Shown piece by piece: positions 21,012 through 55,911 of a stretch of DNA of 64,000 nt. Each line of letters opens with the position of its first letter. Positions within the stretch are counted from its first letter, which is position 1. The notes beneath the pieces were generated by a model. The model did no database searches. It saw only the letters and a list, made by a program, of their open reading frames with translations, and was not told the origin of the DNA. Both the position numbers and the translations under genes were made by a program. This stretch comes from Azolla caroliniana. Taxonomy: Eukaryota; Plantae; Polypodiophyta. Location of the stretch: the NCBI GenBank assembly GCA_043228905.1, contig JBHGNT010000016.1, positions 5,766,001 to 5,830,000 on the forward strand, written 5' to 3'.

Positions 21012-21244
21012 TTTCCTCTTTTCAGAACTATAATACTTTGCATCATGGACTAGTTCTCATACCAGCTTGCACGTCTCTGCTGAAGGTTCCACATTGAAAA
21101 GGAGGTGGCATTTTGCAGAAATGGGTTGCAATCCCTGAGTGGGAATGGTTCATATGAGCAGGGTAAGTGCTCATGTGTAGTAGAATCAGCTTAACTTGAA
21201 AATGAACCTAATTACAAGAATGTAAGAAAAAGCTCAAAACAAAA

Positions 21245-24200
21245 ATGAAGCTGCAAATGGGGAGATGTGACTACCCATTGCAGTCTAATAGAGAAGGCCT
21301 TTTGTCTTTACTAAAAACATGCACAAAATCAAGAGATATGAAAATAGGGCAAGAAATACATGCCACAATTGTGAGGATGGGTTTACTCAAAATGGACCCT
21401 TTCATCGGAACGTCTCTCGTCAACATGTATGCTAAATGTGGTTCACTTTCCAAAGCAAGACGTGTTCTCCATGAGCTTCCAGCTCGGGACGTGGTCTCTT
21501 GGACAGCTATTATAGCCGGATATGTCCAACATGGGCAACCGGAGGAAGCTCTTGAATGTTTCCAGATAATGCAATTGGATGATGGTGTATCCCCTGATGC
21601 TATTACATTTGTTTATGCATTGAAATCTTGTGCTAACATAAAGGACATATGTAAGGGACGAGAATTGCATAATCAGATCAAAAGAAATTCTCTTCAACAC
21701 GACCTTCTTGTCTGCACTGCTTTGGTGGATATGTATGGTAAGTGTGGTTTTCTTGCTAAAGCGAAAGAGGTCTTTGATGAGATCCATACACAAGATGTTG
21801 TGTTATGGACATCATTGATTGAGGGTTACTTGGAACATGGGCATTACGAAGAGGTTCTTGATAGTTTCAATCGTATGCAACTTGAAGGTGTTTCTTTGGA
21901 TACTTTCACATTTATATGTGGCTTGAAATCTTGTGGCAACATGGCCACTGCAAAGCAAGGGTTAGAAATACACGCCCGAATCCAATGCAGGGGTTTTCTT
22001 GAAGTAGACCCAATAATTGGTAATGTGTTAGTTGATATGTATGCTAAATGTGGTCAACTTATCAACATGGCTGAAAGAGCCTTTGATTCACTTCCAAGTC
22101 GAGATGTAATCTCGTGGACCACTTTAATTGGTGGGTATGTGGACCAAAAATGTAGTAAAGAAGCAATTAAATGTTTCGAACAAATGCAGCTTGAGGGTAT
22201 CTTGCCAAATCATGTCACATTTATGTACATCTTAAAGGCTTGTGAAAACACATGGGCCATCAGGAAGGGCCAGAAGGTACATGCTCAGATTGAGGGAATG
22301 GGGCTATCTGAAAGAACGCCCTTCATTGGCAATGTTCTAATAGATATGTATGCCAAATCTGGATTGCTTGCTAGTTCTCGAGAAGTGTTCGACAACCTTC
22401 GTGTTCGAGATGTCATCTCTTGGACAACCCTCATAATAGGATTCTATGAGTATGGGGATGATGAGGAGGCATTGAACTGTTTCAATAAAATGCAGATTGA
22501 AGGTGTCAGTCCCAACACTCACACGATGGTTTGTATCTTGAGAGCTTGTGGGAGCATGGTTGATGTAGGAAACGGGCTAGAGATCCATGCACATATGGAG
22601 AAGAAAGGATGGCTTGATAGTGATGTTGCAGTTGGTACGGCCTTACTTGATATGTTTGTTAAATGTGGTTTACTTCCCGAAGCACATAAAATATTCAGTA
22701 CACTTCATTTTAGAGATGTGGTATCGTGGACCACATTAATTGGAGGATTTGTGCAATTTGGGCATGCTGCTGAAGCACTCGAATTATTCGACAAGATGAG
22801 GATTGAGGGTATCACTCCAGATGCCATTTCATTTTTCTATGCCTTAAAAGCTTGTAATAGCATACAGGCAAGAGAGAAGGTGGATGAAATACACATAGAG
22901 ATAGAGAGAAAAGGGCTTGTCACAAATGACCTTATCATTGGTGCAACATTAGTCGGCACCTACTTCAAATGTGGTTTCGTGTTGAAAGCCCGCGAAGTGT
23001 TTGAAAAGCTTCCAATTAGGAGTGTGTTGACATGGACCTCGATGATTTCCGGATACGCTGAACATGGTTATGTTCATGAAGCATTACAGTGTCTTGAACA
23101 GATGCAAATCCAAGGAATCTCCCCGAATGCCCTCACCCTCATGCATTGCTTGAAAGTTTGTGGCAATAAAGCATCAATAGGTAAAGGTAGAGAACTACAC
23201 CTTGAGATTGAACGGAGTGGAATGGTCGAAAAAGATATCCGTGTTGGAGGGGCATTAGTTGACATGTATGGAAAATCAGGCTTACTTGGCGTAGCAAAAC
23301 AAATCTTGGAGAGTTTGTCGGTACATGATGTGATCTTATGGAATTCTTTGATCTCGAATTATGTAAAACATGGCCAGAGTGAGCAAGCACTTGTATGCTT
23401 TGAGGAAATGCAATTGAAGGGTGTTATTCCGGATGCGGTAACACTTACTTATGCCTTGGAAGCGTGTGCAACGATGAGCATTCAAGCAATAAGGAAGGGC
23501 CGAGAATTAGAAGCACGGGCCAAAAGTATGGATTTGCTTGAAAAAGACATGTATATTGGAAGCACCTTGGTTAATATGTATGCTGAACATGGTATGCTTG
23601 CAAGCATGCAAGAAATATTTGATAAGCTTCCCATCAGAAATGTTGTTTTATGGACAGTATGCATATCTGGGTATGTTAAGCTAGGATATTGCAAAGAGGC
23701 CCTTGAGTTCTTTGAATTGATGAGACTCGACGGCATCCCTCCAAATGCAGCCACATATGTTTGTGGCCTTAAAGCATGTGGTAATGTGGGAGCCATGGAA
23801 AAAATCATAGAATTACATGGTGAGATTGAAAGCATGGGGCTGCTGTTAAAAGATGTTGAGCTTGGCAATGCCTTCATTGATGCATATGCCAAGTCTGGTT
23901 CTCTTATTGTTGCCAAACATGTATTTGAGAAGCTTCCAATACATAATGTTGTCTCATGGAACTTGTTGCTTGGAGGATATGCCTATCATGGCAAAATAGA
24001 TGAGTTTTCCCATAGCTTTAATAGGATGTTTTTTGAGCATATGGAACCAGATCCTATCACGTTCCTGATTGTTCTCAATGTAAGCAACCGTATAGTTCAT
24101 CCTAGCGAATGTGATTCTTTCTTTGAGCATCTAACAAAACATTTTGGGGTTGTTCCAAACCATGGACATGATATGCAAAAGATTAAATTTCTTTGCCACA

Positions 24201-24355
24201 AAGGCATTTTAGATGAGGCAATGAGCATGATAAAAAGGATGCCTTCCCTCAATAATGTTGTTGCGTGGCGTGTTTTATTAAGCTCTTGTACATATTACGG
24301 AAATTTTGACATGGGAACGCATGCATTTGAGCACGCCGTGTCTTGCACAAATTAG
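21245..24355 (+). CDS. PLS-class pentatricopeptide repeat protein (~9 PLS triplets + E1, truncated E2), intronless
   Basis: Repeating 'DVVSWT.LI.GY..HG..EEAL..F..MQ.EG..P(D/N)' / 'TF...LKACG' / 'GN.LVDMYAKCG' triplets. E1 motif 'VVAWRVLLSSCTYYGNFDMG'. Confidence 0.95.
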   Translation: MKLQMGRCDYPLQSNREGLLSLLKTCTKSRDMKIGQEIHATIVRMGLLKMDPFIGTSLVNMYAKCGSLSKARRVLHELPARDVVSWTAIIAGYVQHGQPEEALECFQIMQLDDGVSPDAITFVYALKSCANIKDICKGRELHNQIKRNSLQHDLLVCTALVDMYGKCGFLAKAKEVFDEIHTQDVVLWTSLIEGYLEHGHYEEVLDSFNRMQLEGVSLDTFTFICGLKSCGNMATAKQGLEIHARIQCRGFLEVDPIIGNVLVDMYAKCGQLINMAERAFDSLPSRDVISWTTLIGGYVDQKCSKEAIKCFEQMQLEGILPNHVTFMYILKACENTWAIRKGQKVHAQIEGMGLSERTPFIGNVLIDMYAKSGLLASSREVFDNLRVRDVISWTTLIIGFYEYGDDEEALNCFNKMQIEGVSPNTHTMVCILRACGSMVDVGNGLEIHAHMEKKGWLDSDVAVGTALLDMFVKCGLLPEAHKIFSTLHFRDVVSWTTLIGGFVQFGHAAEALELFDKMRIEGITPDAISFFYALKACNSIQAREKVDEIHIEIERKGLVTNDLIIGATLVGTYFKCGFVLKAREVFEKLPIRSVLTWTSMISGYAEHGYVHEALQCLEQMQIQGISPNALTLMHCLKVCGNKASIGKGRELHLEIERSGMVEKDIRVGGALVDMYGKSGLLGVAKQILESLSVHDVILWNSLISNYVKHGQSEQALVCFEEMQLKGVIPDAVTLTYALEACATMSIQAIRKGRELEARAKSMDLLEKDMYIGSTLVNMYAEHGMLASMQEIFDKLPIRNVVLWTVCISGYVKLGYCKEALEFFELMRLDGIPPNAATYVCGLKACGNVGAMEKIIELHGEIESMGLLLKDVELGNAFIDAYAKSGSLIVAKHVFEKLPIHNVVSWNLLLGGYAYHGKIDEFSHSFNRMFFEHMEPDPITFLIVLNVSNRIVHPSECDSFFEHLTKHFGVVPNHGHDMQKIKFLCHKGILDEAMSMIKRMPSLNNVVAWRVLLSSCTYYGNFDMGTHAFEHAVSCTN

Positions 24356-26073
24356 AATTTCTTGATATTTATGGAGTTATATCCTTAATATTGTTCACTT
24401 TTCTACTACATATGGCGTTGTTGGGCAAAAACAGATTTGACTTGAGAGCTTATGAATGAGTAGATTTGGAGATCCTAGTAATTAGGCAATATAAGGGCAC
24501 TGACATAGGTGGGTGGTAACAAAGTGAAAAACAAATCCAGTTATTATACATGCATACATTGTGGTTCTTATTGTGGAGTACAACTCCAACATGAGGAAAA
24601 ACAATAAATCACTTGATTGATCTTGTATATTACTATTGCATACAACATGGACTTTTTAGCCTATACATTAATCCTATCGAACGACAACAATCACGACTTG
24701 CAATAATATGGGGGTTCTTATTGACGATACTCTCTAACCATAGTCTTATGGCACATTAGGCTTGTTAAAGAAGAAGTTGTTGACATTGTTGAGTTACCTT
24801 CGGTTGTTGAACAATGGGTAGTTCAAATTGTAAGATGGGAAAGTCAATGAGTGGAATTTGGTGTGGCGACAAGACAATTGTAACAAAATTGAGGACACCT
24901 TGGAGATTCACCCTTTGGATTCATGTGAACATTACCTTATTTATATTCAAATTATTGGTCCTACAACACACACACACACACCCCACCTTCATATTGAACA
25001 CAAAAATCCAACAAGATATCGTGAATGAACCAAACAACTACAATCTACAGAAGGAAAAGAACGTTTCCTAGAAGATATCGGTGATAGTCTTAGAAACAAC
25101 ATAACTACATGCTCCTAGAGTCCTACAGAACAACGATTTGCTTAATAATAATAAAACAAGGCTCCATCAGCTCTCTATGTTCTACACAATGACTACAGTG
25201 TGTAAACGAGACAAACGTGTGCCGTTCGATATAATGTACAAGATTCCGAAGCCTTACGTACTATATACATATGCATCTCAAATATGAGAACATGATGCAA
25301 TTTTGCAGCTTGTGCTTTCCCACAATAAGGTTGTGTGTTCAAGTCTAGCAGATCAACTGGTTTAATGTTTTCTGCTCAATTTAATTATATAATCTCTCTG
25401 TAATTCTGGTTTGAGATCATGCATACAGTTTGCAAACTGCCCCTGACTAATGGCTGAGCTGAATAAGTAAGCAATGTCTATGGTGTCTTGTCTCTGTCAT
25501 CCGTAGATACATTACATGCTACCATGGATCAATGGGCTCCTCAGCCTCGGTTTGGTGAAAGGCAACCTTCTTCTCGTTCAGAGAGAAGGTTAAAACGGAG
25601 AGGAGGAAGAGAACAAGACTATGGGGCCTATTCAGAGCATATTTCTTCTGAAGAAACGATCGCTTGGAATCAAAAGAAGAAGAAGAGGCAAAGAAGAAGA
25701 ACAAGATAAGAAGATGCTCTTTCTCAATAGATGGAGCCAATCAAAAAACAAAAGAAAGAAGAGGGAAAGAAAAAAACTTGAAAACGAAGAAGAAGAAGAA
25801 GAAGAAGAAGAAGAAGAAGGAAGAGAAATTTCATGTTTTTAAGGAGCATCCATATCTTGATCAACAAAGAGAAAAAAATCTAGGTATGCTCTACATAAGG
25901 ATCCAAATCAGAAGAAAAACAATGAGATACGCTCTTCAGAATGACCCAAATCTCGAAAACAAAGAAGAAGAAAGAAGAAAGGAAGAATCAAGTTCTGCTT
26001 TTCAGAGGCTATGACCCCAAATCTTGCAAATAAGGAAAGGAAAGGACAAAAGAAATGAACAGTAAGGCAAAGT

Positions 26074-28956
26074 ATGCAAATCCGGCCTAGAGTAGGGGCT
26101 GTGTATAACATGGAGCCTGCTGGCTCAGTTATTGACCTTTCAGGATCTATTACAGACTTTTCTCAGTCAATGCAACAATGCCGAAAGGATAGAGACCGAT
26201 CCCGAGCTCGAAAGGTACATGTTTACTTGTATAAATGTGGATTAGATTCTCACAGATCACTAGGAAATTACCTTGTCTCTTTATTAGTAGATGTTGGATG
26301 CATGATAGATGCACGACAAGTTTTTGATAGAATTCCTTACAGGAATGAATGCTCTTGTTATTCCCTTATGTCTGGATATGTGAAACAAGGGAACCCATCC
26401 TCAGCCCTTAGCCTCTTTGACAAAATGCAAATGGACAGTGATGATTCACTGCAGCATGCAGCCTTTTTGCCTCTCTTGAAGGCTTGTACGAAGCTCAAAG
26501 ATGTGGATAGGGGCATTGAAGTGCATGCTAAAGTTGCGAGACTGGGGTTGGTTCAAAGAGATATGTTCATTGGATGTGCTTTGGTTGACATGTATGCAAA
26601 ATGTGGACTTCTTCGTAGAGCCTATGAAACATTTGAAAAGCTTCCGAGTAAGGATGTGGTTGCCTGGACATCATTAGTGACAGGATATGTTGAACATGGT
26701 CATGGTGAGGAAGCTCTCAAGTTTTTTCAGCAGATGCAGCTCGAGGGTGTATCACCAGATCTTGTTACATTTTCTTGTGGCTTAAAAGCTTGTGGTAGTG
26801 TCCAAGCCATGAAAAAGGGAGGAGAAATACATGCACTGATCGGGAAGTCCGGTTTTCTAGAACAAGATCTCGTAGTTGGAACAACCCTAGTGGATATGTA
26901 TTCTAAAGGAGGTTGTTTTTTCAGAGCCCAGGAAATCTTTGATAACCTTGAAGTTAGAGACGTGGTTGCTTGGAATGCTCTTATTGGAGGTTATGCTGAA
27001 CATGGAAAGGGTGAGGAAGCACTCAATTGTTTTGAGTTGATGCGAATTGAGTGTCTCTCTCCTGATGTTGTCACATTTTCTTGTAGCTTGAAGGCTTGTG
27101 GTATTGTGAAAGCTGTACACCTAGGCCACGATATACATAGTGAAATTGAAAGGAAAGGGTTGTTGGAGGGAGAGATTCTTGTTGGAAACATGTTGGTTGA
27201 TATGTATGCAAAATTTGGGTTCCTTGACACAGCACACCAAGTGTTTGACATGATTCCCATGCAAGATGTTGTCTCATGGACCTCACTTATCTCTGGATAT
27301 GCAGAGTATGGCAATAGTGAAGAAGCCCTAATGTTGTTTGAGAAGATGCAAATTGCAGGTGTCTCTCCCAATGCTGCAACTTATGTTTCCATTTTGAAAG
27401 CTTGTGGCAACATGTATGCCTCTGAAAAAGGTCGATATTTGCATGCCGAAATTGAGAGAAAGGGGCTGATGAAAAGTGACCTTATTATAGGTAACACCTT
27501 GATCGATATGTATGCTAAATGTGGGTTGCTTTATATGGCACAAGAGGTTTTTGACAAACTTATAGTTCGAGACGTTGTTTCGTGGACTACACTAATTACC
27601 GGATATGCTGAACATGGGCATGATAAGGAAGCACTAAAGTGCTTTCAGCAGATGCAATTGGATGGAGTCTCTCCAAATGCCATGACATTTGTGAGTAGCT
27701 TAAAATCATGTGGAAGCCTTGGAGCCACAGGCAAGGGTCAGGAGATACACGCTGAAATCGAGCGGAAAGGGTTGTTGAAAACAAATGTTTTAATCGGAAA
27801 CACTCTGCTTGATATGTATGCTAAATGCGGCTCTCTTTCCTTAGCACAACAAGTGTTTGACAATCTTCATGCCCGAGATGTAGTGTCATGGACAACACTC
27901 ATCACTGGATATGCTGAACATGGGCATGGCAAACAAGCAGTTCAATATTTTGAGCAAATGCAACGACAGGGTATCTCCCCGAATGCTGCAACATATGTGT
28001 GTAGCTTGAAAGCTTGTGGTAGCATCGGAGCAATAGAGAAGGCTGCTGAAATACATGCTCAAATCGAGAAAGATGGTTTGCTAGAAAAAGAACCTGTCGT
28101 AGGAAACACATTAATTGATATGTATGCTAAGTTTGGAATTCTTAACAAAGCACAAAGTGTATTTGATAAGCTTAAATTCCGGGATGTGGTTTCATGGACA
28201 GCTCTCATCGCTGGATATGCCGAACATGGGCATGGTGAAGAAGCATTGCAACAATTTGAGCAAATGAAGGTTGATGGCATTTTTCCAAATGCTGTCACAT
28301 TTGTGTGTGGTTTGAAAGCTTGTTGTAATATAGGGGCCACTGAAAAAGGGCGGGAGCTACACAGTGAAATTGAAAGAAAAGGGTTGCTAGCAAGTGACAT
28401 TATTGTTGGAAACACGTTAGTAGATATGTATGCCCAATGGGGTTCCCTTATAATTGCACAGCACGTCTTTGATGAACTCCCAGCCAGAGATGCAATTGCG
28501 TGTAATTCGCTTATTGCAGGATATGCTCAAGCAGGCAAATCTGAGAGTGCTTTTCATGTGTTTGAAAGAATGTTAGGTGAGCAAATAAAGCCAGATCCGA
28601 TCACTTTCATTATTGTTCTGAATGCATGCAGCCGAGCAGGACTATCTAGCAAGAGCAAAACATACTTTGAATCCATGAGCAAAGATTTTGGCATTATTCC
28701 AACTCTTGAGCATCATGCTGGCCTGGTTGATCTTCTATGCCGTGTTGGCCAATTGGATAAGGCTGTATCGATTATCAAGAAGATGCCCTTTTCTCCTAAT
28801 CTCGTTGTATGGAATACTGTGCTTGGTGCTTGTAGATATAATGGAAATGTGGAGCTCGGAAAGCATGCGTTTGAACATTCCCTTGATTTGGATGAAAAGG
28901 ATCCTGCAGCATACATCTTGATGTCTCAGATTTGTGCAGCTTTTGGCATACAATGA
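26074..28956 (+). CDS. PLS-E class PPR protein (organellar RNA-editing-factor type, ~8 triplets + E1/partial E2), intronless
   Basis: Regular PLS triplets, then P2-L2-S2, E1 'LVVWNTVLGACRYNGNVELGKHAFE' and E2 start 'AAYILMSQICAAFG'. No intact DYW domain. Start may be the Met at 26110. Confidence 0.96.
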   Translation: MQIRPRVGAVYNMEPAGSVIDLSGSITDFSQSMQQCRKDRDRSRARKVHVYLYKCGLDSHRSLGNYLVSLLVDVGCMIDARQVFDRIPYRNECSCYSLMSGYVKQGNPSSALSLFDKMQMDSDDSLQHAAFLPLLKACTKLKDVDRGIEVHAKVARLGLVQRDMFIGCALVDMYAKCGLLRRAYETFEKLPSKDVVAWTSLVTGYVEHGHGEEALKFFQQMQLEGVSPDLVTFSCGLKACGSVQAMKKGGEIHALIGKSGFLEQDLVVGTTLVDMYSKGGCFFRAQEIFDNLEVRDVVAWNALIGGYAEHGKGEEALNCFELMRIECLSPDVVTFSCSLKACGIVKAVHLGHDIHSEIERKGLLEGEILVGNMLVDMYAKFGFLDTAHQVFDMIPMQDVVSWTSLISGYAEYGNSEEALMLFEKMQIAGVSPNAATYVSILKACGNMYASEKGRYLHAEIERKGLMKSDLIIGNTLIDMYAKCGLLYMAQEVFDKLIVRDVVSWTTLITGYAEHGHDKEALKCFQQMQLDGVSPNAMTFVSSLKSCGSLGATGKGQEIHAEIERKGLLKTNVLIGNTLLDMYAKCGSLSLAQQVFDNLHARDVVSWTTLITGYAEHGHGKQAVQYFEQMQRQGISPNAATYVCSLKACGSIGAIEKAAEIHAQIEKDGLLEKEPVVGNTLIDMYAKFGILNKAQSVFDKLKFRDVVSWTALIAGYAEHGHGEEALQQFEQMKVDGIFPNAVTFVCGLKACCNIGATEKGRELHSEIERKGLLASDIIVGNTLVDMYAQWGSLIIAQHVFDELPARDAIACNSLIAGYAQAGKSESAFHVFERMLGEQIKPDPITFIIVLNACSRAGLSSKSKTYFESMSKDFGIIPTLEHHAGLVDLLCRVGQLDKAVSIIKKMPFSPNLVVWNTVLGACRYNGNVELGKHAFEHSLDLDEKDPAAYILMSQICAAFGIQ

Positions 28957-31417
28957 TTGTGTTATAATGGACATGTGGCAAAACTAAAGAGAGGGAAATG
29001 GATGCCAAATTTTTCATTCTCTTAATTGGGAAGAGAATGCTTGCAGCCATTTTTGTAGATCGAGTGAAGTAGGGCTAACATAACACTGTTGAGGTTGTGA
29101 AGTGCATGAAGCTTTGTCACACTTGTTTATACTAAAGCTTGTGATAAATTTGTCCGAGCTTTTGGTTTAATCTCTTTTGTTTATTGGTATGATTTTTAGC
29201 ATGTATAGTGTTGTCTCAAAGGATTGATTCAGATCCGATAAACCTTTGCATTTATCTTCATGATCGTCACTCACAGTGACCTCTTCAAGAATGTATAGAG
29301 TAAATTTTCTTGGGAAGGCCTCTGATATTTGGTTAAATGATTGTCACACATGTAAATTGATGAAGAGGCAGCACATTGGGTTGCCATTCAAGAACCATTC
29401 AAATATCTATATAAACAAACCTCACTATCAAGGAGCAGACCAGGCTTGATCCATATGTGCATGAGAACATAATATCTTTGTGTCATATCCTTGAAATTTT
29501 CAACACGAGTTTGTGATTTCCATCAAGTCAGTAGAACTAAAATTTGATGGCATCATTTCTTATGACAGGCAACCCTGTGCTTTGTCTTTCAAGATGAGTC
29601 TTTCCATTATTTATAGGTATAAGAAAAACATGGAATGGAACTCTATCAAATGATGGGTACAATTTTTAAGAGGATGTTTTGACAGCTGTCAAAATTTGGC
29701 ATGCCCTTTGACTCCATCTCAATATGGGAAAATTTATGCAACCCTCCGGAGATTGTTGAAAGATTGTACTGAGTTTGTCTTCTATGTTTAATTGTCCCTT
29801 TGTATCTTATTAAGGCTAGACAAATTTTCTTTGAGAAGAATTTCCACTCTGTTCCAGCATGAACCGGACGGATTCCTTTCATCAGCCTTCTTTCAATGAC
29901 ATTAATCATGCATAATACTTATTTAAGTGTTGGAGTTATGAATGAGCTGACTTTGTATGGTACCTGTGTGAGGAAGTTATGTAAATAATAATCAATTATA
30001 ATTCCTTCATGTGAATTATCACTATAATTGAAGCATCTACAACACAATTAATTCACTAGTTATGACCTCCAACCACAGAGGGCACCAATGACAATGGATG
30101 TTCAGGGAGTTAATGAAACGACTTCATGGGTGCACTCTTGCTTAGGATAATTACTCCATTTGATTTCTTAACTCATACGGTGTTTTTCCTATGTTCCACC
30201 ACACTTCATACTTCTATGCACAACTTTCTTGGTACCTTTTATGCTTTATAACTTTTTTTATCTCATATTTTGACAATTGTATCATATGATTCATTTGGCA
30301 ATTCTAATATGGGTCTCATTGGTCATGTTGTCCTTCATAAATGTTAATAGCATTGCATTTAATTTGTTTTGGCTTGCCCCCATAGTTAAGTTGGAGAGCT
30401 TTTGATATTGTGCTTTTATTGATGCAATGACCCATACCTCTTATGTATGGACCAATAACAATAGTGCCCTAGCATACTTTCAACATAAAAAAAATCTGTT
30501 ATGTACGAGGTAATATTGACAATATTCTTTATATTTTTAATGAAATCAAAATGCATTGTTGGTCTCACCAATGGAATGAAAATGATTGTTTTAGAGTTTT
30601 TTTGAGCTTGATTGGGACACAAGTTATGAAGCACTATTGGCCATTCCATATTCGAGAAAAAACCTAACACTTCATCTAGAGTTGCCCAATTTTAGTCAAG
30701 GACAAAGTCGTCCACACGAATGGATGACATCTAGATTGGTCATGCCATTATTCGCTAATGGTGTACCACTCAGTGTAGAAACAAAGACATGTTTTCAAAG
30801 AGGAATGTCTTGAGCACGAGGATCGATCGAGTTGAAGAACAAATGAGTTTCATGATGGATCAATTCTTATTCGGCAATGGCTCAACGTGATCGAATATAT
30901 TGAAACAAGACCAATCATGGCATGGTTTGGTTCTTTGACTTGACGAATAATCAAAACACAACTTGTGTTTACCGAAATGCAACGTCGGTTTGAAAAACGC
31001 AAGGAAAAAGTTGATCACGATGGTCAATCGAGGAGTTGAGGCTCTGCCCACGTAAAATGGGGCCAGTTTTGTAACCGATTGATGGAAGGAGACACAGAGA
31101 CCATCACACAAATTTGGCGATCAACAAAAAGCGATCGAATCTCTACTATCAGCTCTTCAGGGAATTATAAGAGACGATCCATAAGTAATCTAATTGATAA
31201 ATTAAACTAATCAATTAATTAATGGATTAATTAAACTAATCAATTAATCAATTGATTAATCAAACGAATTAATTTATTAATGAATGAATATGAAAATATG
31301 ATGGGCGATGGGAATGAGAAGATGGTTTGGTTTCTTCCTTCCTTTGCTTCTCCTCCCCCGACGACCCTTCCTTTTTGAACCATCGCGAGTAATCTGGATT
31401 CTGCCTGTCTCAACCCA

Positions 31418-31433
31418 AAACCCTAACCCTAAA
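31418..31433 (+). promoter_or_regulatory. Telo-box (AAACCCTAA) tandem in a pyrimidine-rich probable 5' region of the CNBD gene; candidate leader exon ending at a GT donor at ~31625
   Basis: AAACCCTAACCCTAAA downstream of a CT-rich patch (31330-31380). Similar telo-boxes at ~15488 (SLY1 intron start) and 55870-55878 (exonuclease gene). Confidence 0.5.
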
Positions 31434-33000
31434 TCTCTGTGTTCCTGCTAACCTTTTCGGTTACATCTCGAAAGACACAGATGAACATATCCATCATATC
31501 TGATCTTCTCCAACAATGGCAGAGGTTCGGCCAAGATTCTTGATTCCGTTGCGATATTCCACTGAATATGCACTTCTGCTGATGAGGATATTTTTCTCGA
31601 TTCTTTCCCAGAATCCTCCAAATGGTATGTATGCATATCGGAACTATGTTTGGAAAACAGTAAATATCTAAATTTGTTAAAATAGTTCGAGATGTTTAGC
31701 TAGTGAAGGAATGCCAACCTGATGAGTGCGAACAAAGGAGAAAACATGGGATATATAGTCACAATAAATGAGATGCTGTTTATACATTATTTAATTAGGA
31801 AGGTTGATCTTTGAGGAAATCTCTATAATTTAACTCCATTGAATTAAGCATTCGATATAAGGATTTTGTCTTGGGATGTAATTTCTTATTTATACATTAA
31901 AAGAATGAAAAGCAACGGTGCTAATGAAAGACCATCAAATATGGGCAGATAGTTCAAATCCAATGCAAAAGAGTTGTTCATGACATCTTTCTTGTTTATA
32001 AATTGTTGAACAAGGAGGAGAGGTTATATGGGCATATAGCTACATTGTCAGTGAAAGGAGTTAAATTGAGACATATATTCTTGTATGAACTTTTTTGAAT
32101 AAGGAAGCTCATCAAATATATTATTGTGGATTTAGAATGCCATCGAAATAGCTTGCAATGGGATATATATTTCTTGTTTATACATTTTGGAAGAAGGAAG
32201 ATAGATGCTGAAGGAAACCATGAAACATTCAAGGAAAAGTGATGTTTCATGAGGCATTTTTCAAGGAAAACAGATGTTTACAAGCGAGTGGAGATGGTAG
32301 AGGAAAACCCTATAAGTTTTTCAATCATATTGGGTGAACAATTGAATTTTCTTATGAGGGAGGGAATTGTTTTGGACATATTTGATTTATTTGTGCATTG
32401 TTGAATGAGGAGGGAAGATGTTAGAGGAAATCTTCCAAACATGGTACATTGTTATCATGTGAGGGAAAGCAGGTTGTTATGAGACATGAACACCATGTTA
32501 TTCTTGTGACAAGTCAAGTTTCTGGTTGACTATGCTGGAACGCTACAATGTTGCTGGGGGGGTACTCATGGAATGTATGAAGCTACCTCCTCTCATTTCA
32601 CAGCACCTCACTTGCGCGATACCTTTTCATGCTAAGAAGAGAAATGTTAGAGCTATAAATAAACTCGATAATATTAAGTGGTCTTTTCCAGTACAGGGTG
32701 TTTTTCTTGGTACAATTTGTTTATTTTATGTGTTGTAGAGCTTTAGAAAATTTTAGAATGCAAGATTCATTTAGTGGGAGATAGTCAGAATTTGCATGCA
32801 TGCACTAACCTGAAATCTCAATCATCCTTCCTCCATCTTTGAATTGGTAATGGGCTGCCAATCACTCAATTGTTATCATCTACTAAATGAGTCAAAGCCA
32901 TATTTTGTTTGCTGGTAGCATAAAGATGGAGAAATCCTATTTGGCATTTGGTTTTCATTTTGTTCTGCTTCTCATATTCTTTTCATTGCTTCCCCATTCA

Positions 33001-36000
33001 ATGTCTGCTACTTCTTGTGATCTACTCCCAAAACATCTGAATTATTCTTTCCCCAATGCACGAGAAAGATGCAAGTTCAAGAGACACATTGAAAAGCCAA
33101 ACAAGAACAACCATATCCAACTAGTAGCATACGTTAATTAAAAATTCATCACATCTATGTTTGGCCAATAAAAGGTTTGTGTTTTCAATTAAGCTTCAAA
33201 TTTTAATGGCACGTGTAGGCATTAACTGTGCCTGATGGACGACGTGGTTTGGCACATTTTCAGCTAGAAAGTCGGAGGAATGTTCTAAAAAAATGGTAAG
33301 GCCCTGCCAGATTCTTTTTCACAGTTTCTATTTTCGTAATTAATAATCGAAAATTTAATAAAAACTTGGGTAGTCAATGAACTGCTCTCATTGTTTTAGA
33401 TGTTTGTTTTGTAGTAGGAACTTGGCTTAAACTTCTTATGCACTAATCTGGAAATCTAAGATACTCATATATAGTGCCATTTTGTGAACGAAATTTGATT
33501 TTCAATTTCGTTTGATGCAATATTGCAGAAATTGCAAGGTATAAGCACATCATAAATATAGATGGAGAAGGCTTTAAAATTTAATGGGAAAGTAGTAGGA
33601 TTAACAATATATACAGTCTTTGGAATCACTTGAGACAACATTTGTAGGCGAAGTCAATGCCCTCTTGATAAGTTAATTGTTTATGTTAAAACCTTTGACA
33701 AATAGCTCTTGTAGGTATTACAAGAACTCACGTAATTTCAAATATTAACAGTTGAAACTAGGGCTTTTGTGAGCTATGATGATGGTTTGGACATACTGAT
33801 TATTTCAGCCAGATGGGAGGCTGGAATTAAATGCTCAATGTCCAAAAGTTAGATCTTTTGATAACCAGACTTCTCGTTTGATAATGGAATATAATGCATT
33901 TGAATAGTTTTGCATTAAAATGAAAGCATTGATTTTTCATATCTCCACTTTCGAAACATATCTCCATCAAATCTTTATCATAAATAATCAAATATTAAGG
34001 TATCAAAATAAAGAAATGTACCAACAAACTTAATTGTAGATGTTGAAATTTAACTGAAAATGCTTTTACATTCTTGAAAGCTCCCAAGATCGAACCTTCA
34101 ATGAGCTCTATATACTTGAAGATGTTGCTGCCAGTGTCAAATTCATACATAATCTTCCATTTTCGAAACGTCTTGAGGTATTGCAACATTGCACATTTCT
34201 GTGAAATAGGAACTTCAGAAGTAAAAGTTTAGATGAAATATGTTCACTCAGACTCTATCTATAATATACATTTGCAACACCACCTTAAGCACTGTTATCA
34301 TAGACACGTGGGATACATGCAGGATGGGCCATCAGCAGTATTGTGTACCTTATTTTGGGGATGCATGTAAATCTTTCACCACAAGTAGAAGTAACTGAGC
34401 TATCATCCTTCAATCTTTGTAGTACATTAGTAATGTCAACATAGACACTCCCTATGGGTGTTTCCTGCATCTGGTCTTCATGTGATTATCTCGCACAGCT
34501 TATGCAGAGAAAAATAAGAGAATCCTGGTTCTGTTATGTCTTTATAGGCAAGAGTGTTGGTCCCTTTCTAATCAGCTAAATTCTAGAATAATGGATGATG
34601 TTTTGAAGGGGATTTGCCAAGCATTCACAATGAACATATTTATTGATTTTAGGCATGATTATTCAAAAGGATGTATGCCAAAATGATTCAAAGATGCAAA
34701 TTTATCCATGAATATGGAGATAATGATCACTTAATAGTTTACATGGTTGTAAATTTTTTCACCAAGTGTTACTGCTTAATTCAGGTTTACAAGCTCTTCA
34801 AATACCAGGAGGTTGAAGAAAGTACTACTGGTATGGTGGAAATTTTAAAGACTGCCCATTTTTCTATATTCTTATTGAAACATATTTTTTAATAAAGGTC
34901 TGTTTTCTTACTATATTCATACAGTATACAAGGTTAGGGATTTGGCAACCTGTATGTACATAATCTTCACAGGTTCTGTCAAGGTATACTATTTATAAAT
35001 ACTTGTAGGTATGCTGTCTTTATGCGTATTTTCTTTCTGGTCAGACCAGTGATAATTTTCTATTCCAATATTTTAAAGGTTTCAACGCTTGGTCAGAAAG
35101 CAAATGAGTTTACTATTTTGGGAGCTGACGACTACTTCGGAGAAGCAGTTCTTTTAAAGGAGGATCTACTAAGGCATGCATTTTTTGTTACATTAACTTA
35201 AAATATCAATGCATTTATCTACATTCATTTAAATTATTTTTTATGCCCCTTGGTACCTCACTTTTGATATGAAGAAAATGGGTGATTAAGTGAGAAGATT
35301 GAAAGTGAGATAGATAGGCATGTGCATATGAGTGTGTGTAAGTAACACAGTTCCATCTGCTGGAAACAGTTCTAGGGGCATAAAAAGATGAGAAAAAATA
35401 ATGGGGTTTGTTGAGCAAGGTAAATGTAGGAGCAGTCCATGGAACTTTCTATATCAGATTTACAACAATTTTTTTGAACATGCAATTCTTGTGGGGGAGG
35501 TTATCCGGGCCGTATGTACATTGTACATAGCACTGAAGAGGGGTGATAGTATGTTTTCCCTGGTCATTGTTTTTTATTATCATAGTCTGACAAGTACACT
35601 GGAAATAATGTTAGATGCACACAAATAGAATTAAGAATGATCATTTGATATAATTTGGAAATTTGACTCCTGTCGTTTATTCCAGGAGAGAGACTGTAAC
35701 TGCTAAAGAAAAGGTGTGAATCAGCGTCAGGTTAAAGAGAATAATTAACATTGAATAATGCATCCAAAATAATCATAAGAAACATAAAAAATGCAAAGCC
35801 TTTCTGCAATCCAAGCTAACATGATTATATGAATAGTCTCTTTGTAGAAATAATGATCGGATTTTCTAGCACTAGCAGGATTATCTCCTGGTGGGCCAAA
35901 TATTCTAATAGAATATCCTTTTCTGGGTCAATATGTAAAATTTACTTGTACCTTCGGAATGGATCCTTTGTCAGTCCCTTTGTGGCAGAGGCAACTGGAT

Positions 36001-39000
36001 GTAAAGATGAGATATTAATGGGATTTTTTTCCTGTGTGAAATGGAAATGGGAGAATTTAGCTACTGGATGAGATGTTTGACATAATGCCTTTGCAAAAGC
36101 TTTGTTTATTAGAAAAGAGTTAAAATTAGTTGCTGTAATGGCATACATCAGTACATTTGCATGTGGGGTTGGATTTCTATGAGCAGCCTTACCACTTGCC
36201 TGTTCATAATACGTCAGATAGGTAGGAATCTATATCAGAGACAACAAAAATGAATAGTTACAGATAATCTCACATCTATGAGTGACAAAGTAGGAAACCT
36301 TCATGTAGCCTAAAGGATGACCAACATTGATCAATGAATCATTGTAAAAGTGAATAAATTCCTCTTGATAAGGTTTAAATGTACACTGGAAGTAGAACTG
36401 AGATAATTTTCATCCAAATGAGGTGTTTTAGTGGGTGAACAACAGTCATTCCTGATGCTAATCAATGCATACTTTTCTGTTAAGTTTGTCTCAATCATGG
36501 TTATTGTAAGATTTGAAGCTCCAAGTAATTTCTAGTCACTAAGACGTGCATATATGTGTGTGTAGGTATGTATGTATGTGTGGTTTGCATGTTGGCGTAT
36601 ATGTAGGACCTATGTGTGTATGAATGCAATATCGTGTGTACGTATATATAAATTTATGGGCTCTTTCTAGGGTGAAACACTTCACTGTGTTGGAACTTTT
36701 GTACCAGGGTGAACTCTATACTGTATGTACACTACAGTAAGAGCCATAGTATACCACCAGGGCTGATATTGATTGTAAAATTTCATCTGATATGAGAGTT
36801 CAAAAATCATAGTGCTGGTGGACAAAGACATTGCATGTGACAGAATAGGCATGAAGCTAGAGCATTAGTCAATTAGCTGGATACTTCCAGGTCTCAAACT
36901 TGACCCAATCTCAGAAGATTCTCTAGGCATTCAAGCAATTTTTCCTCATCAAACTATGGTCTTTACTTGTTTTGTGATGTGGTACTGATGTTTTTATAGT
37001 ATTTGTTTCTCTCAGTGTGAGCTTGTGGTTCTGACCAAGGAGGATTATGATAGTATTTTAAAAACAGAACTTTCACAGGAAGTAAAAGAAAAGGTGGAAA
37101 CATTGAAGGTGAAGTAGGACAAATTTTTGTAACCTTATCATGTTTAAAATTAGACGGAACAGAGAAACAGTTGCCTTTTGAATTTGAATTATCTATGCCA
37201 AGCAGAACATAAAAGTTTTACGAGGCATTTCTGATTTGAGCATCCAACGGCTTGCTAGACTATTAATTCCAAGGACTTTTGCTAAAAATAGAGGTAAATT
37301 TACAAACAGCACAAAAAATCAACCAAAGGAACTAGCTCACCTCTTTCTCTGCGAAATATTATTCAATAATGTCAATAATTTCGATTTTAAAATTATTTAA
37401 AAGGAAAATGACAATAATGAAATGTTAGTTTCGATTTTTATAATTCAAAATTATAGTTCATATTATATCATCCAGGTATGTGAAAACATCTACGATGTCT
37501 GGTGTCTTCATACAAGCTGATAATTTTGTTATCCTAAATGTTAATTTAGTTAGAGGTTTTTTTTCGTCGTAAGGAAACCTTTCATGTCATTTTAGTTAGG
37601 CTTAGGCAACAAGGAGTTGACATTGATTGTCCTATTTTAGTCCATACGATTTAGCAGGGATGCTGCAACTACCAGATGCAGGCTGGCTACTGATATGAGA
37701 AAATATCGCATTTCTTGCTGAAGTTTGGATTTATGTCATTTAGCATAAAGGCATCAATTGAGAATGTGTGTTGTATCTTTTTGCATTTTTACACTGTTAG
37801 CAATGGAATCTGTTTTCAACTTCTGACAGAGATCTTGAACTCGTCCTTGATGTGTATGTACCTTTTGCAATGTTTATGAAAACCTTGCCTTCAGCTCTGG
37901 ATGATTGTTTTCTCATCAATAGGCTTTTATTTAGCCCTTGTTTTGGTTTTATGAAAGCACTTATCTTTTTTGTTATTTATCATTCAAAACATAATGTATG
38001 TTGTATTAATTCCTATGCAGCTTTTATTGACATAGATTCATATATGTTCTCACAGCTCATCATGAAAAAATTAATTCTAACATTGCATGATTGTTTGATA
38101 TAATGGTATACTGTCTGTTTAATGTTTGTAATTTATCATTCTCATCATGACATGTGCTGTTTTTGCTCCTCCACTACCTGATGCAAAATTCACATATTTG
38201 CACCTATACCATATAATCGTGGCTTTAAGTATGTAAATCTTTCTGTTTTATAGTGATTTCTTTCCAAGGAGAGGAGGCCATGGAGATGTATTTTATGAAG
38301 TCTGGGGAATGTCGGGTATTCATATTGAACTCCAACTCAGTCATGCCTCATGTTCATAATGATAGGCAAAAAAAGTAAAGAAACTTTTGTTGAAAGATAC
38401 ACATAATCTTGATAGTAATGTGTGGTATTAATCATAATTGATCAATTGCCTGTAATAATTGTCTATGATTGATCACAATATTGAAAAAAAAATTCAATAT
38501 TGATCACAAGGTGCAGGGCCTTTTATCTATCATCTGTAATAAGTTCACATATTTGCTTTGCACATTTGAATGTTGCATGCGATTTGTAACAAATTTCACC
38601 GTTTTTTTAATCGAAGCAAATTTTATAAATGTTAATGATGCTTTTGTTTAAATGCAGGTTGTGATGGAAGTCAACAGAGAACCCAAAACTACAATTAGGC
38701 CACTACCACAAGCAGCTATGAATGCATATAGGTAGAATTCTTTCAAAGCAGCAGAAATTTTGCAGTAACTAATCTGAATGCTAACTCAGATTTTCTTTCA
38801 GGTCACCCAATCTCTCATCAGAGACTCTGAATGCTAATCCACATTTTACAGCAGCAGAAAGCCTTTATTTGAGGTCTGCGTCAGCCGTTCCTCTTCAACC
38901 TCAAATGGAAGCAGTAAATCCATTATGTCTACCATCGAGAAGTCACTCAGTGAATCATAACAACACTACTTCTGGAAGAGCTTCATGTCAGCTCGTCAAT

Positions 39001-41010
39001 TACAAATCTTGCTACACAGCTTGCCAAAATGATTTTCTGTGCCATGAAGAGAAGAAGGATCTGCATACATCGAGCAGCTTGTCTTTCGTAAATATGAGCA
39101 GAGGACCTGGTTCTGAATTAAAGGACAGTATCAAGGGCTCCAAAAAGAACATGAAAATATTTAACTGTGCAAAAAGCTCAAATCCTGCTTACACTTTGAA
39201 GTCCTTTTTAAAAGACTTCCAGAAAAGAGAACCTGATGGAGATCTTATTGCAGATTTAGACTTTTCAGACAAACATGCGCTATCATGGAATACAGGAACT
39301 AACATGAGTGGGATGCTCAGAGGTGACATTAGTGATGGAGCAGCATATCAATGTAAGTTTGAGAATTGGGCAAAAGGAGTGGTTGCAAGAGAGAAGAAGA
39401 GACTCTGTGGTGAAGCATCTATAAACCAAGAGTTTGCGTCCAGCATTTCTATTCAGTCCATGCGGAACTCATGGCCAGCTAGGTCAAAGAAGCCAATCAT
39501 TTCAGAGGTCAAGAACTCTCCTCTCAATCTGGATAATATTAAATTTTAAAGTGGGAAAGCATGCCCCCGGTTCTGTATGTTCTTTGCTTCGATGCTCAGG
39601 ATAAGTTATTAAAATGTGAATAACAGATGCTGTGTTTATATGTGTATGCAGGACACTGTTTTTTTGGATGTTGGAGCGTTACACCCAGGGGATTTTTTTG
39701 GAGAGGTTAGTTGTTTCTTTTTGCAAGATTTCAGCTATTTGAAATGACAATGGACAAGAAGTTGTAAACAAACCAATAAACAAGAAGGGTATTCATGACT
39801 CCCCTAAGTGCAACATTAAAATGTTGTTTGCAAATGTCACAGTTTGATATATCTAAGCAATCAGATAGGGATGTAAAAATGTCATCATGATAGATATCCA
39901 AGTAAGGACTCACTCAAAGTGGCCAGAATTCATGAAAATGTTCATCCATCGGTATCCCAACTCTTGTTGTTCTGATTGTGAGAAGGGCAAAGTGGCCTTT
40001 TATGTGGCTGGAGAAATCAGATTAGCACATGAAAATGCTTTTAACACTTACATCATGGTACATATCTAATGTGAAGACACAAAGGGAGTGAGCCTCTGTT
40101 AAGAGGTTTATTCTTCTGGATGCCAACCATTCTCATTTGTTGCTGCATATCGTATAGACCAAAGTTACCTGGGTACTTTGGCATGTGTCATGTACTGACT
40201 AGTTTTGTTGCTTATTCTTTGACATAGGAAGATTAGAATGTCTTAATAGGTCCTTAATTTGTGATGTTTATCTGCAAAGGCTTCGAATCTCATGTGTATA
40301 AGTTTGTATCACAGATTGGTTTGTTACATCATTCACGTAGGAAAGCGAGCATCTTGACAGTCACTGCGGTGGAGGTCCTGGTTCTTAGCAAATGGGACTT
40401 CAATAGACAAGTTGACAAAGACATTGTTGAGTGTCTTTCTGCCAATGTAAGCTCTTTTTCTGTATTTAGTCAAGTATTTTAAATGTTTTCCTTACATATT
40501 TGAGAAATATTTAATATTTTTGTTTACATGTCCAAATTGCTTCACAGTTAAAGTATTTTTCATACATGTCAAATTGCTTTCCTTACATATTTGAGGAGTA
40601 TTTAATATTTTTGTTTACATGTCTAAATTGCTTTCACAGTTCAAGTATTTTTGAAGTGTTTTTGGACGTTTTTCTTGGATATTTCGAATATTGTTCTTAT
40701 GTGTATAAATTGTTTCGAATGTTGTTTGAAGTATATAGCTCAAGCTCTCTGTATATGCAGGACTACAAAAAGATCGAGGATATATTTCGGCAGTATCAAA
40801 AGACGCGGCGATGGGCACATTACAAGGTATCTAATGATATAATCTGTTGTTTGTTTTTAGCAGATTTTACTCATTTATTGTGTATGGAATATTTTGCTGC
40901 AGAAAAAGATAATGCAAGAAGTTCTTGCTGCACGTAGAATGCGTTTTCCAAACCTTTACGAGCATCACATGGGTGTGGGCAAGGGAATGCCTCATACAAA
41001 AAGGGAGTGA
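33001..41010 (+). CDS. Soluble tandem cyclic-nucleotide-binding-domain protein (CNBD1/CNBD2- or PKA-R-like architecture), ~16 coding exons, ~638 aa
   Basis: In-phase exons: 33001-33132 (start uncertain), 33219-33295, 34081-34177, 34785-34830, 34925-34983, 35079-35173, 35686-35713, 37016-37108, 37206-37293, 38254-38315, 38658-38731, 38802-39507, 39652-39705, 40315-40446, 40761-40826, 40903-41010. CNBD-A: VYKVRDLATCMYIIFTGSVKV...GADDYFGEAVLLKEDLLRRETVTAKEKCELVVLTKEDYD. CNBD-B: VISFQGEEAMEMYFMKSGECRV...LHPGDFFGEIGLLHHSRRKASILTVTAVEVLVLSKWDF. Confidence 0.88.
40480..40652. repeat. ~90-bp tandem duplication in a CNBD-gene intron
   Basis: TTTCCTTACATATTTGAG..ATTTAATATTTTTGTTTACATGTC.AAATTGCTT..ACAGTT.AAGTATTTTT occurs twice. 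Confidence 0.85.
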
Positions 41011-47673: not shown

Positions 47674-49068
47674 ATGGTAGGAAGAGGTTTTAGCTTTCAG
47701 TGCCATCATCATCATCATCATCATCATCATCCTCTGAAGACCTTCAAGCTTGGGATGCTTCTCATACTCCTGCTTCTCCTCTTCCTCTCCCTCAGGGCTA
47801 AAGCTTGGTTTGACCTTCTTCAAGAAGATGGTAAGAACCCCCCCCCAAGAAAAAAGAAAAGAAAGAAATCAGGGATAAGGAAGAAACAACAGAAAAGGAA
47901 ATTGAGAACTGGATTAAGGATAAGAGACCAGAGATAGAGAAGAGTTTGTGAGAAGATTTCCAAAAACATAGCTCTCTGCTGTTCTTCTTCATGGAGAACC
48001 ATGTCTTTGAGGAGACAGTTCTTCTGCTTGGCCTCAATTTTCATTTCTATGTTTCTGGTTTGTTGTTAATTAATTAGGCATTGCTTGGGAGACAAGGTTA
48101 GCTTCATTACTTCCAGTGTGTTTAGCTAGAGAGATGGATAGGTAGTCAATAGAGAAAGACAGACAGACAGAGAGAGAGAGAGAGAGAATTCATTATGCTT
48201 AGTATTATTATCATTTGATCTGTTGTTTCCAATTCTGGTTTTGCTCAGATCTTTGGAGGCATCACCACCCTTTGCAACATTCAAATAAGGTACTTTCTTC
48301 CACTCCATGGCATTATAAGCTTTGATCTTAATCTTTGAAACCATTAGTTACAAGTCAGCCTTGCTCTTCATCTTAGTCTGAAACTTACTCCTACTCTCAA
48401 AACTTTAAATCCTTTCTCTTTACTTAAAGTCTGTACCCTTAAATGTTTGTGCTAGTCTCAATCTCAATCTTAGACATAATACTAACTTAAATCTTAGTCT
48501 TAATCATAGTCTTAATCTTGTAGAACATATATGTAAGTGCCCACATTATGGGAATGGATGGGTGTGCTGCAAGTATGTCTGATTCAAATGTGATGCAAAA
48601 CATTTTCTCACATGCATACGGATGGATACATTGTATTGGTTTTGTATGTATGTATCTATCTATATATACATATCTATCTATATATATATATACATATCTA
48701 TCTAGCTATATGTATATATATTATGTATATGATGTGTTCAAGTTCAAATTGTTGATTGAATTCAAATTCTTGCCATTTGACAATTGCAGGATTTCACATA
48801 TCACGATAAGATTGTGGTATCCTCGCATCCGAAGATGAAGATGAAGGTGGAGGTATCATCAGCAATGGCATCGGCATCTGAGGTACGTGCAGCTATGTCT
48901 TCACCTGCGACATTGTCGTCTTCGACAAAGCAGCCCGGGTCCCGCCCACCCGAATGTAAGAGTGCATGTCCTGGTTGCCCCAGCGAATGCATAGCGCGGC
49001 CCATCTATGTTGTCGGCACCCACGATACATACCAACACGCTCTTTGGACATGCATGTGTGTCTTTTAA
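47674..49068 (+). CDS. EPIDERMAL PATTERNING FACTOR-like (EPF/EPFL) secreted cysteine-rich peptide precursor, 3 exons, ~158 aa
   Basis: Exons 47674-47830, 48249-48289, 48790-49068 (GT-AG, in phase). Hydrophobic signal segment MLLILLLLLFLSLRAKA. Mature domain PGSRPPECKSACPGCPSEC...YQHALWTCMC with six Cys and the GSxPP and WxCxC hallmarks. Confidence 0.85.
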
Positions 49069-55820: not shown

Positions 55821-55911
55821 GCAACACGATATCATAGCTTTAACATTATCATTGGCCTTTTCTCATCATAAACCCTAATCTCTCTCTCTCTCTCTGCTGT
55901 TCCTGTGTGCG

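What the first reader, a model, noticed from the sequence alone, without database searches (positions are those of the whole stretch)
33001..41010. Hidden 16-exon gene for a soluble tandem cyclic-nucleotide-binding protein: candidate plant cAMP/cGMP effector
Seen: small in-phase exons, largely missed by the ORF track, assemble a ~638-aa protein with a pre-CNBD helical motif (LKKCSQDRTFNELYILEDVAASVKFIHNL), two CNBDs with phosphate-binding cassettes (YFGE...RRET; FFGE...RKAS) and a C-terminal 'RRWAHYKKKIMQEV' helix. No transmembrane, kinase or phosphatase domain is visible. Established: in angiosperms CNBDs occur mainly in CNGC/Shaker channels and a few enzyme fusions, while plants with flagellated sperm keep cAMP machinery (CAPE adenylyl cyclase/phosphodiesterase and a PKA regulatory subunit in Marchantia), and animals use soluble CNBD proteins (CNBD2/CRIS) in sperm flagella. 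Inference: an uncharacterised non-channel cyclic-nucleotide sensor, possibly acting in sperm motility of seed-free plants. I see no obvious PKA-R docking/inhibitor segment, so it may be a separate effector class.
Basis: partly seen in the sequence, partly recalled or inferred. Interest (0 to 1): 0.8.

Follow-up and report, generated by a model that had tools for sequence, protein, structure and literature searches.

The report
Fern cAMP-sensor gene tracking swimming sperm

Summary
The gene is real. RNA-derived contigs bridge 13 of 15 introns.

Layout: EPAC-like N-terminal helices, CNBD-A, CNBD-B split by a ~250-aa loop, and a C-terminal W-x-x-Y-K helix. No membrane segment, kinase or PKA inhibitor site. 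The tail marks a family of microbial eukaryotes (61 of 150 profile hits).

New details: site A is canonical in the wider family but carries an acid two residues after its Arg in 6 of 6 land-plant sequences; site B is intact except in Ginkgo. The 28-nt exon completing Arg-A is skipped, with a frameshift, in 5 of 8 runs laid.

Best reading (0.6): a CRIS/CNBD2-like cAMP effector of sperm flagella. Binding, sperm expression and kinship to animal CNBD2 are untested. Databases hold it as a hypothetical protein; my ten paper searches found no study.

The parts
31332..31624 (+). Exon 1: 5' UTR ending in the start codon ATG 31622-31624 (5' end = where contigs begin, not a mapped start)
   Evidence: Joint 31624->33219 in 5 of 8 runs; orthologue starts match
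31516..31624 (+). Upstream ORF (41 codons, other frame) overlapping the main start codon and ending in exon 2
   Evidence: Sequence; function untested
33219..33295 (+). Exon 2 (aa 2-27): N-terminal helix
   Evidence: helix 7-25 in orthologue model
34081..34177 (+). Exon 3 (aa 27-59): EPAC-like pre-CNBD helices (N3A region)
   Evidence: matches EPAC2 residues 316-392
34785..34830 (+). Exon 4 (aa 60-75): CNBD-A start
34925..34983 (+). Exon 5 (aa 75-94): CNBD-A strands
35079..35173 (+). Exon 6 (aa 95-126): cassette A FGE (35136-35144); ends at a GC donor inside the codon of the cassette Arg126
35686..35713 (+). Exon 7, 28 nt: completes Arg126 and encodes Glu128; skipped with a frameshift in many transcripts
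   Evidence: Needed for frame; present in orthologues; skip joint in 5 of 8 runs
37016..37108 (+). Exon 8 (aa 136-166): end of CNBD-A and linker helix
37206..37293 (+). Exon 9 (aa 167-196): CNBD-B N-terminal helices
38254..38315 (+). Exon 10 (aa 196-216): CNBD-B first strands
   Evidence: Pfam cNMP_binding fragment
38658..38731 (+). Exon 11 (aa 217-241): strand 4 and start of the insertion
38802..39507 (+). Exon 12 (aa 241-476): insertion inside CNBD-B, mostly predicted disordered
   Evidence: pLDDT <50 over 225-367 of the orthologue; no Pfam hit
39175..39444 (+). Land-plant-specific conserved ~90-aa helical segment inside the insertion (aa 366-455)
   Evidence: Profile hits 12 of 312 fetched proteins, all in fern, liverwort, Ginkgo or unnamed fern-like records
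39652..39705 (+). Exon 13 (aa 477-494): CNBD-B resumes; cassette B FGE
40315..40446 (+). Exon 14 (aa 495-538): cassette B Arg503 (40339-40341), hinge and C-helix
40761..40826 (+). Exon 15 (aa 539-560): family tail helix with invariant Trp556 (40812-40814)
40903..41010 (+). Exon 16 coding part and stop codon; contigs run on to about 41344

Best explanation
The locus is a transcribed 16-exon fern gene for a 595-aa tandem cyclic-nucleotide-binding protein without membrane or enzyme domain, which likely works as a cAMP-switched adaptor in building or tuning sperm flagella, like animal CRIS, and is predicted to bind cAMP through its second domain. Shown: gene structure, domain layout, orthology across ferns, a liverwort and Ginkgo, and residue changes in both cassettes. 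Inferred: (1) cAMP made in antheridia and sperm enters site B, whose G-E and Arg are in canonical register; (2) site A is self-plugged, because an acid replaces the small residue two places after the Arg; (3) binding moves the hinge and C-helix (standard CNBD mechanism) and with them the conserved W-x-x-Y-K tail, the probable partner-docking surface, with the land-plant segment in the loop as a second candidate surface; (4) skipping of exon 7 keeps full-length protein low where it is not needed.
For: Splicing. Orthologues. Land-plant clade 100/100, with Prasinoderma and two unnamed marine sequences as sister 99/96 (one search gave 100 and 95 on 63 rows). Split CNBD-B folds as a whole domain in the model: 133 residues at 1.7 A rmsd, Z 19.8 to the SpIH CNBD. 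Tail modelled at pLDDT 92-97 in an algal relative; its Trp is invariant in 69 of 69 rows. All 14 species named among tail-bearing proteins belong to lineages with flagellated cells (names; flagellation recalled). Cassettes: site A Arg 56/56 and Ala at Arg+2 51/56 outside the green clade, acid in 6/6 land-plant sequences; site B Arg 10/11 in the green clade. Arg+2 is A211 of RIalpha, mutated to Asp in Carney complex (PDB 7lz4 title). Literature: cAMP is high in Marchantia sperm and CAPE and PKA-R control motility (PMC11032487); CRIS has a CNBD as its only functional motif, binds cAMP not cGMP, and co-purifies with IFT172 and KIF2A (PMC3854790). Nearest Atlas clusters are arthropod and mollusc CNBD proteins of 540-546 aa.
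Against: No binding or localisation data. Transcripts occur in runs of four studies whose tissue is coded, so sperm specificity is not shown. Ginkgo's site B lacks the Arg (Trp) and its site A is missing from the truncated record; Calypogeia's site A has lost the Arg, so binding may be decaying. Site B has Lys after the Arg, where PKA-R and EPAC have Ala. No moss, lycophyte, hornwort, cycad, Marchantia, Chara or Chlamydomonas member was identified. Absence from angiosperms rests on a word-limited search (which missed Ginkgo even when it was in the query) and a top-150 list of 50% representatives of which I named few. PKA-R survives in Cryptomeria, a conifer (Table S2; non-motile sperm recalled), so cAMP machinery need not mean flagella. 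Exon 7 inclusion is not directly displayed.
Confidence: 0.6

Rival explanations
1. Ligand-free scaffold: still a flagellar or sperm protein, but land-plant copies have lost or are losing nucleotide binding and act as a fixed adaptor through the tail and the loop segment.
For: Site A altered in 6/6 land-plant sequences, Arg-A lost in Calypogeia, Arg-B lost in Ginkgo; the tail and loop segment are kept even in Ginkgo (24/44 and 23/88 identical).
Against: The second half of CNBD-B is among the best-conserved parts (52-60 of 63 identical among ferns) and keeps G-E-Arg in ferns, liverwort and the algal sisters.
Confidence: 0.2
2. General, non-flagellar cyclic-nucleotide effector active in vegetative tissue, whose loss in seed plants is unrelated to sperm.
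For: Spliced contigs in 6 of 8 runs laid, from four studies and three organism labels; no members identified in several flagellated plant groups.
Against: The listed joints at exon 6 are frameshifting (stop after 131 or 159 codons); retention in Ginkgo with no angiosperm or conifer seen; cAMP is low in Marchantia thalli.
Confidence: 0.12
3. Divergent PKA regulatory subunit or detached PKG regulatory domain that inhibits a kinase.
For: Best whole-fold matches are PKA-R and PKG tandem CNBs.
Against: No RR-x-S/A/G/T-hydrophobic site before CNBD-A in the window protein or four full-length land-plant orthologues, whereas RIalpha has one there; only 13 residues precede the first helix region, leaving no docking domain; Ceratopteris has separate PKA-R genes; the tail is absent from the kinases fetched (7 of 120 rows carry it).
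Confidence: 0.04
4. Decaying gene that rarely makes full-length protein.
For: Frameshifting skips of exon 7, exons 7-9 or exon 9 in contigs; truncated annotated isoforms in Ceratopteris.
Against: Intact frame over 16 exons; domain parts 58-95% identical across ferns while the variable loop is 24-31%, the pattern of purifying selection.
Confidence: 0.04

Closest known systems
CRIS / CNBD2 (animal sperm-precursor cAMP receptor; PMC3854790)
   Same: Soluble, CNBD as only recognised functional motif, FGE...Arg cassette, lineage pattern tied to flagella; recalled (not tested) to share the N-terminal helix, split second CNBD and C-terminal Trp helix.
   Different: The paper describes one CNBD (mouse 202-333) and only animal orthologues. 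The fern protein has two, is predicted to use the second, and has a land-plant-only loop segment. No named CNBD2 sequence could be fetched.
EPAC1/EPAC2 regulatory region
   Same: CNBD-A with its preceding helices aligns to EPAC1 (149 residues, 2.3 A, Z 18.6, 32% identity) and EPAC2 (137, 1.9 A, Z 18.3) in the algal relative's model; best profile hits in PDB.
   Different: No DEP, REM, RA or CDC25 GEF domain.
PKA regulatory subunits, including MpPKAR1/2 (PMC11032487)
   Same: Tandem CNB-A/CNB-B joined by a long helix; occurs in plants with motile sperm.
   Different: No inhibitor site or docking domain; large insertion between strands 4 and 5 of CNB-B; extra tail helix; altered site A.
Marchantia Mp1g17230, 'CNB domain containing protein' (Table S1 of PMC11032487)
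   Same: The one unassigned entry among 14 Marchantia CNB proteins; a liverwort orthologue exists in Calypogeia.
Database records Ceratopteris KP509_05G011500, Adiantum GOP47_0007875 and L7F22_045571, Ginkgo Gb_02727, Calypogeia CAM6116411.1
   Same: Orthologues (window protein 53% and 58% identical to the Ceratopteris and A. nelumboides records).
   Different: All hypothetical or unnamed; none described functionally in the papers I could search.

Membership tests
CNBD (cNMP-binding) superfamily | Eight-stranded barrel with cassette and hinge/C-helix | tested here: met
   Pfam PF00027 110 bits, cut-off 27.5, in the full orthologue; model matches at Z about 19-20
CNBD (cNMP-binding) superfamily | Site B cassette G-E and Arg in register | tested here: met
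   G493, E494, R503; Arg in 10 of 11 green-clade rows
CNBD (cNMP-binding) superfamily | Site A cassette with small residue at Arg+2 | tested here: not met
   Glu128; acid in 6 of 6 land-plant rows versus Ala in 51 of 56 others
CNBD (cNMP-binding) superfamily | Binds cAMP or cGMP | not testable with these tools
   Needs a binding assay
CRIS/CNBD2 family | [quoted passage not shown] | tested here: met
   definition from PMC3854790 section 6
CRIS/CNBD2 family | Groups with named animal CNBD2 (reciprocal best hit or clade) | tested here: inconclusive
   No named CNBD2 among 312 fetched proteins; opisthokont tail-bearing members lie far from the green clade with open branching; Atlas neighbours are unnamed arthropod and mollusc clusters
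CRIS/CNBD2 family | Expression in sperm precursors; flagellar phenotype | not testable with these tools
   Run tissues are coded
PKA regulatory subunit | Inhibitor site just before CNB-A | tested here: not met
   versus RIalpha
PKA regulatory subunit | Tandem CNB-A and CNB-B | tested here: met
EPAC / RapGEF | CDC25 GEF catalytic region | tested here: not met
   No such Pfam hit; transcript ends after exon 16
CNGC / Shaker / SOS1-type membrane proteins | Transmembrane domain | tested here: not met
   Best 19-residue hydropathy 1.28; exon 1 joins exon 2 with stops upstream in frame
PKG | Fused kinase domain | tested here: not met

The most novel reading that the evidence does not exclude
Plants with swimming sperm keep a third, kinase-independent cAMP arm: an ancient CRIS-like flagellar receptor, lost with flagella in seed plants, whose ligand site moved from the first to the second domain in land plants and whose production is gated by a 28-nt exon that carries the site-A arginine codon.
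Probability: 0.35. Interest if true: 0.72.

Novelty: new variant of a known kind. Interest (0 to 1): 0.52.

Why it matters
How cAMP acts in land plants is long disputed, and the only effectors tied to sperm motility in the Marchantia study are the PKA-R subunits. This gene gives a specific, single-knockout test in Ceratopteris or Marchantia of a kinase-free cAMP output. If it is CRIS's counterpart, CRIS would be an ancient eukaryotic flagellar family rather than an animal one, and ferns and liverworts would be easy systems to find its partners. The cassette changes give residue-level predictions.

Tried and rejected
First exon at 33001-33132: rejected (no joint; a loose end in X1 runs from 32944 into sequence matching 33003 onward without that ATG). 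ATG at 31516 as main start: wrong frame, stops in exon 2. No whole genome is held, so paralogues, CAPE and PKA in this genome were not checked. No run is on record as RNA (no RNA holder listed); X9 behaved as DNA and X12 laid nothing. Homodimer prediction of orthologue residues 150-582 gave no verdict (score 0.00, alignment not used). A broad-profile word search returned mostly PKG-like kinases (7 of 120 rows with the tail). No solved structure matched the tail by sequence in the 60 rows shown; the tail was not folded alone, so no claim on its fold. No Pfam family for tail or insertion. Paper searches: searches found no study of this plant family; Mp1g17230 and PTHR23011 gave 0 papers; the 2011 ciliary-profile supplements (PMC3268115, one file cut) had no CNBD2/C20orf152 entry. 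The A211D paper (Jafari 2021) is not held, so its effect on cAMP binding is recalled only. Earlier scan notes: none.
Full report
Gene structure. I laid contigs of eight public runs on the locus (organisms coded, 90-99% alike, none on record as RNA). Contigs bridge 13 of the 15 introns at GT..AG ends: all 13 in three runs, 8 of 13 in a fourth. The real first exon lies upstream: 5 of 8 runs join 31624 to 33219 and the last three bases of that exon are the ATG, with in-frame stops before it. The protein is 595 aa, and Ceratopteris and Adiantum proteins begin at the same residue. Intron 6 has a GC donor. The host is a fern: best hits are Adiantum and Ceratopteris at 53-58%.

Exon 7. This 28-nt exon completes the codon of the site-A arginine. 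The listed joints skip it: exon 6 to 8 in X1, X2, X3, X4, X8; exon 6 to 10 in X2 and X7; a loose end from exon 8 into exon 10 in X4. These give stops after 131, 159 and 166 (or 131) codons. Inclusion is not displayed (two joints were left out; X1's small depth in the bin holding exon 7 is compatible with it, no more). Homology demands it: Ceratopteris P0010 and both Adiantum proteins have it. Ceratopteris also has annotated forms lacking exons 6+7 in frame (P0002) or starting near exon 8 (P0008), and an unnamed fern-like transcript protein starts in exon 8. Unproductive splicing here therefore seems shared among ferns; whether it is regulation or noise is open.

Anatomy. N-terminal helices, CNBD-A (about 61-166), CNBD-B split between strands 4 and 5 by about 250 residues, and a tail helix. 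In the model of the Ceratopteris orthologue (mean pLDDT 64.8, pTM 0.42, loop under 50) the two halves of CNBD-B form one domain: 133 residues at 1.7 A, Z 19.8 to SpIH. An algal relative with a shorter loop models better (78.1, pTM 0.67; tail 92-97), and its first domain with preceding helices matches EPAC1 and EPAC2. No membrane segment or PKA inhibitor site (one algal sequence of eight has such a motif in its disordered N-terminus) and no Pfam family other than cNMP_binding in the orthologue. Conservation follows the domains: against Ceratopteris 42/60, 61/106, 45/56, 52/63 and 32/44 identical in helix, CNBD-A, both halves of B and tail, 35/135 in the variable loop, 58/89 in a conserved loop segment.

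Family. A profile search of 1.84 billion representatives gave 150 listed hits, 61 with the tail. Over all fetched proteins 102 of 309 scored 8 bits or more on the tail profile (the seed rows match by construction, and many rows are near-copies), against 0 of 312 shuffled. I looked up 27 clusters; most are unnamed. Named tail-bearing species: Ceratopteris richardii, Adiantum capillus-veneris, A. nelumboides, Calypogeia fissa, Ginkgo biloba, Prasinoderma coloniale, Mesostigma viride, Myrmecia bisecta, Cyanophora paradoxa, Pygsuia biforma, Chromosphaera perkinsii, Dinochytrium kinnereticum, Entophlyctis sp. and Phytophthora ramorum. That these have flagellated stages, or in Prasinoderma flagellar genes, is recalled. 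Trees on 306 conserved columns (63 rows quick; 32 rows careful; near-duplicates and gappy rows left out) give a land-plant clade at 100/100, sister to Prasinoderma and two unnamed marine sequences at 99/96; deeper branching is open. The loop segment profile hits 12 of 312 proteins, all fern, liverwort, Ginkgo or unnamed fern-like. No angiosperm or conifer appeared, but neither did mosses, lycophytes, cycads or Chlamydomonas, and the word-based search missed Ginkgo, so absence is suggestive only.

Binding sites. After removing near-duplicates, site A has its Arg in 56 of 56 rows outside the green clade and Ala two places on in 51 of 56. All six land-plant rows with this region have Glu or Asp there, and both Calypogeia rows lack the Arg; the three algal sisters are canonical. 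Site B has its Arg in 10 of 11 green-clade rows (Ginkgo has Trp) but in only 29 of 56 others. That position is A211 in RIalpha, whose Asp mutant is a Carney complex allele; that it weakens cAMP binding is recalled, the paper not being held. I infer a plugged site A and a working site B in ferns and liverworts.

What is known. PMC11032487 (passages, section 11, first part of section 12, supplement passages): CAPE and PKA-R control Marchantia sperm motility; 14 CNB proteins, one unassigned (Mp1g17230); PKA-R also in Cryptomeria, Cycas, Ginkgo and Ceratopteris. PMC3854790 (passages, section 6): CRIS binds cAMP through one CNBD and is listed only from animals. PMC10380512 and PMC7436996 (passages): CNBD2 is a ciliogenesis hub gene in an annelid and reproductive-tract-specific in humans. 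PMC8144671 (passages): N3A motif and A211D. PMC11555346 (abstract): a trypanosome flagellar CNBD protein with C2 domains, a different layout. PMC3268115 supplements and bioRxiv 2025.04.26.650577 (passages): nothing on this family. Ten searches found no study of the plant protein; subscription papers and preprint supplements, such as sperm proteome tables, were not searchable and may list it.

Verdict. The best reading is a CRIS-like, cAMP-switched flagellar adaptor kept in plants with swimming sperm (0.6); a ligand-free scaffold is the main rival (0.2). It works like CRIS; membership is unproven for want of a named sequence. It is not a PKA-R, EPAC, PKG or channel. New variant of a known kind; interest 0.52.

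Noticed in passing
window 16949-18814 (+): Single-ORF Sec1-family gene (Pfam E 7.6e-125).
   Followed up: no
window 21212-24355 and 26059-28956 (+): Two long intronless PPR genes in tandem; the second has an E motif.
   Followed up: no
Probably chance.
   Followed up: partly
window 31418 and 31516 (+): Telo-box-like motif (name recalled) and a 41-codon upstream ORF overlapping the main start.
   Followed up: no
window 48781-49065 (+): EPF/EPFL-like cysteine-rich peptide exon (Pfam E 4e-05, below cut-off).
   Followed up: partly
window 55879-57408 (+): ORF with a lysine/glutamate-rich N-terminus and a DNA_pol_A_exo1 3'-5' exonuclease domain.
   Followed up: no
window 62215-63563 (+): First exons of a citrate synthase gene running off the window.
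   Followed up: no
window 5240-5542 (+): Fragment with Tf2-like SH3 and weak chromo hits, typical of an LTR retrotransposon remnant.
   Followed up: no
P0202 (Phytophthora ramorum record): Tail-bearing CNBD protein fused to a PPPDE peptidase domain; may be a gene-model fusion.
   Followed up: no
alignment A7: The loop between strands 4 and 5 of CNBD-B ranges from 28 to 342 residues (anchor to anchor) across the family and is longest in land plants.
   Followed up: partly
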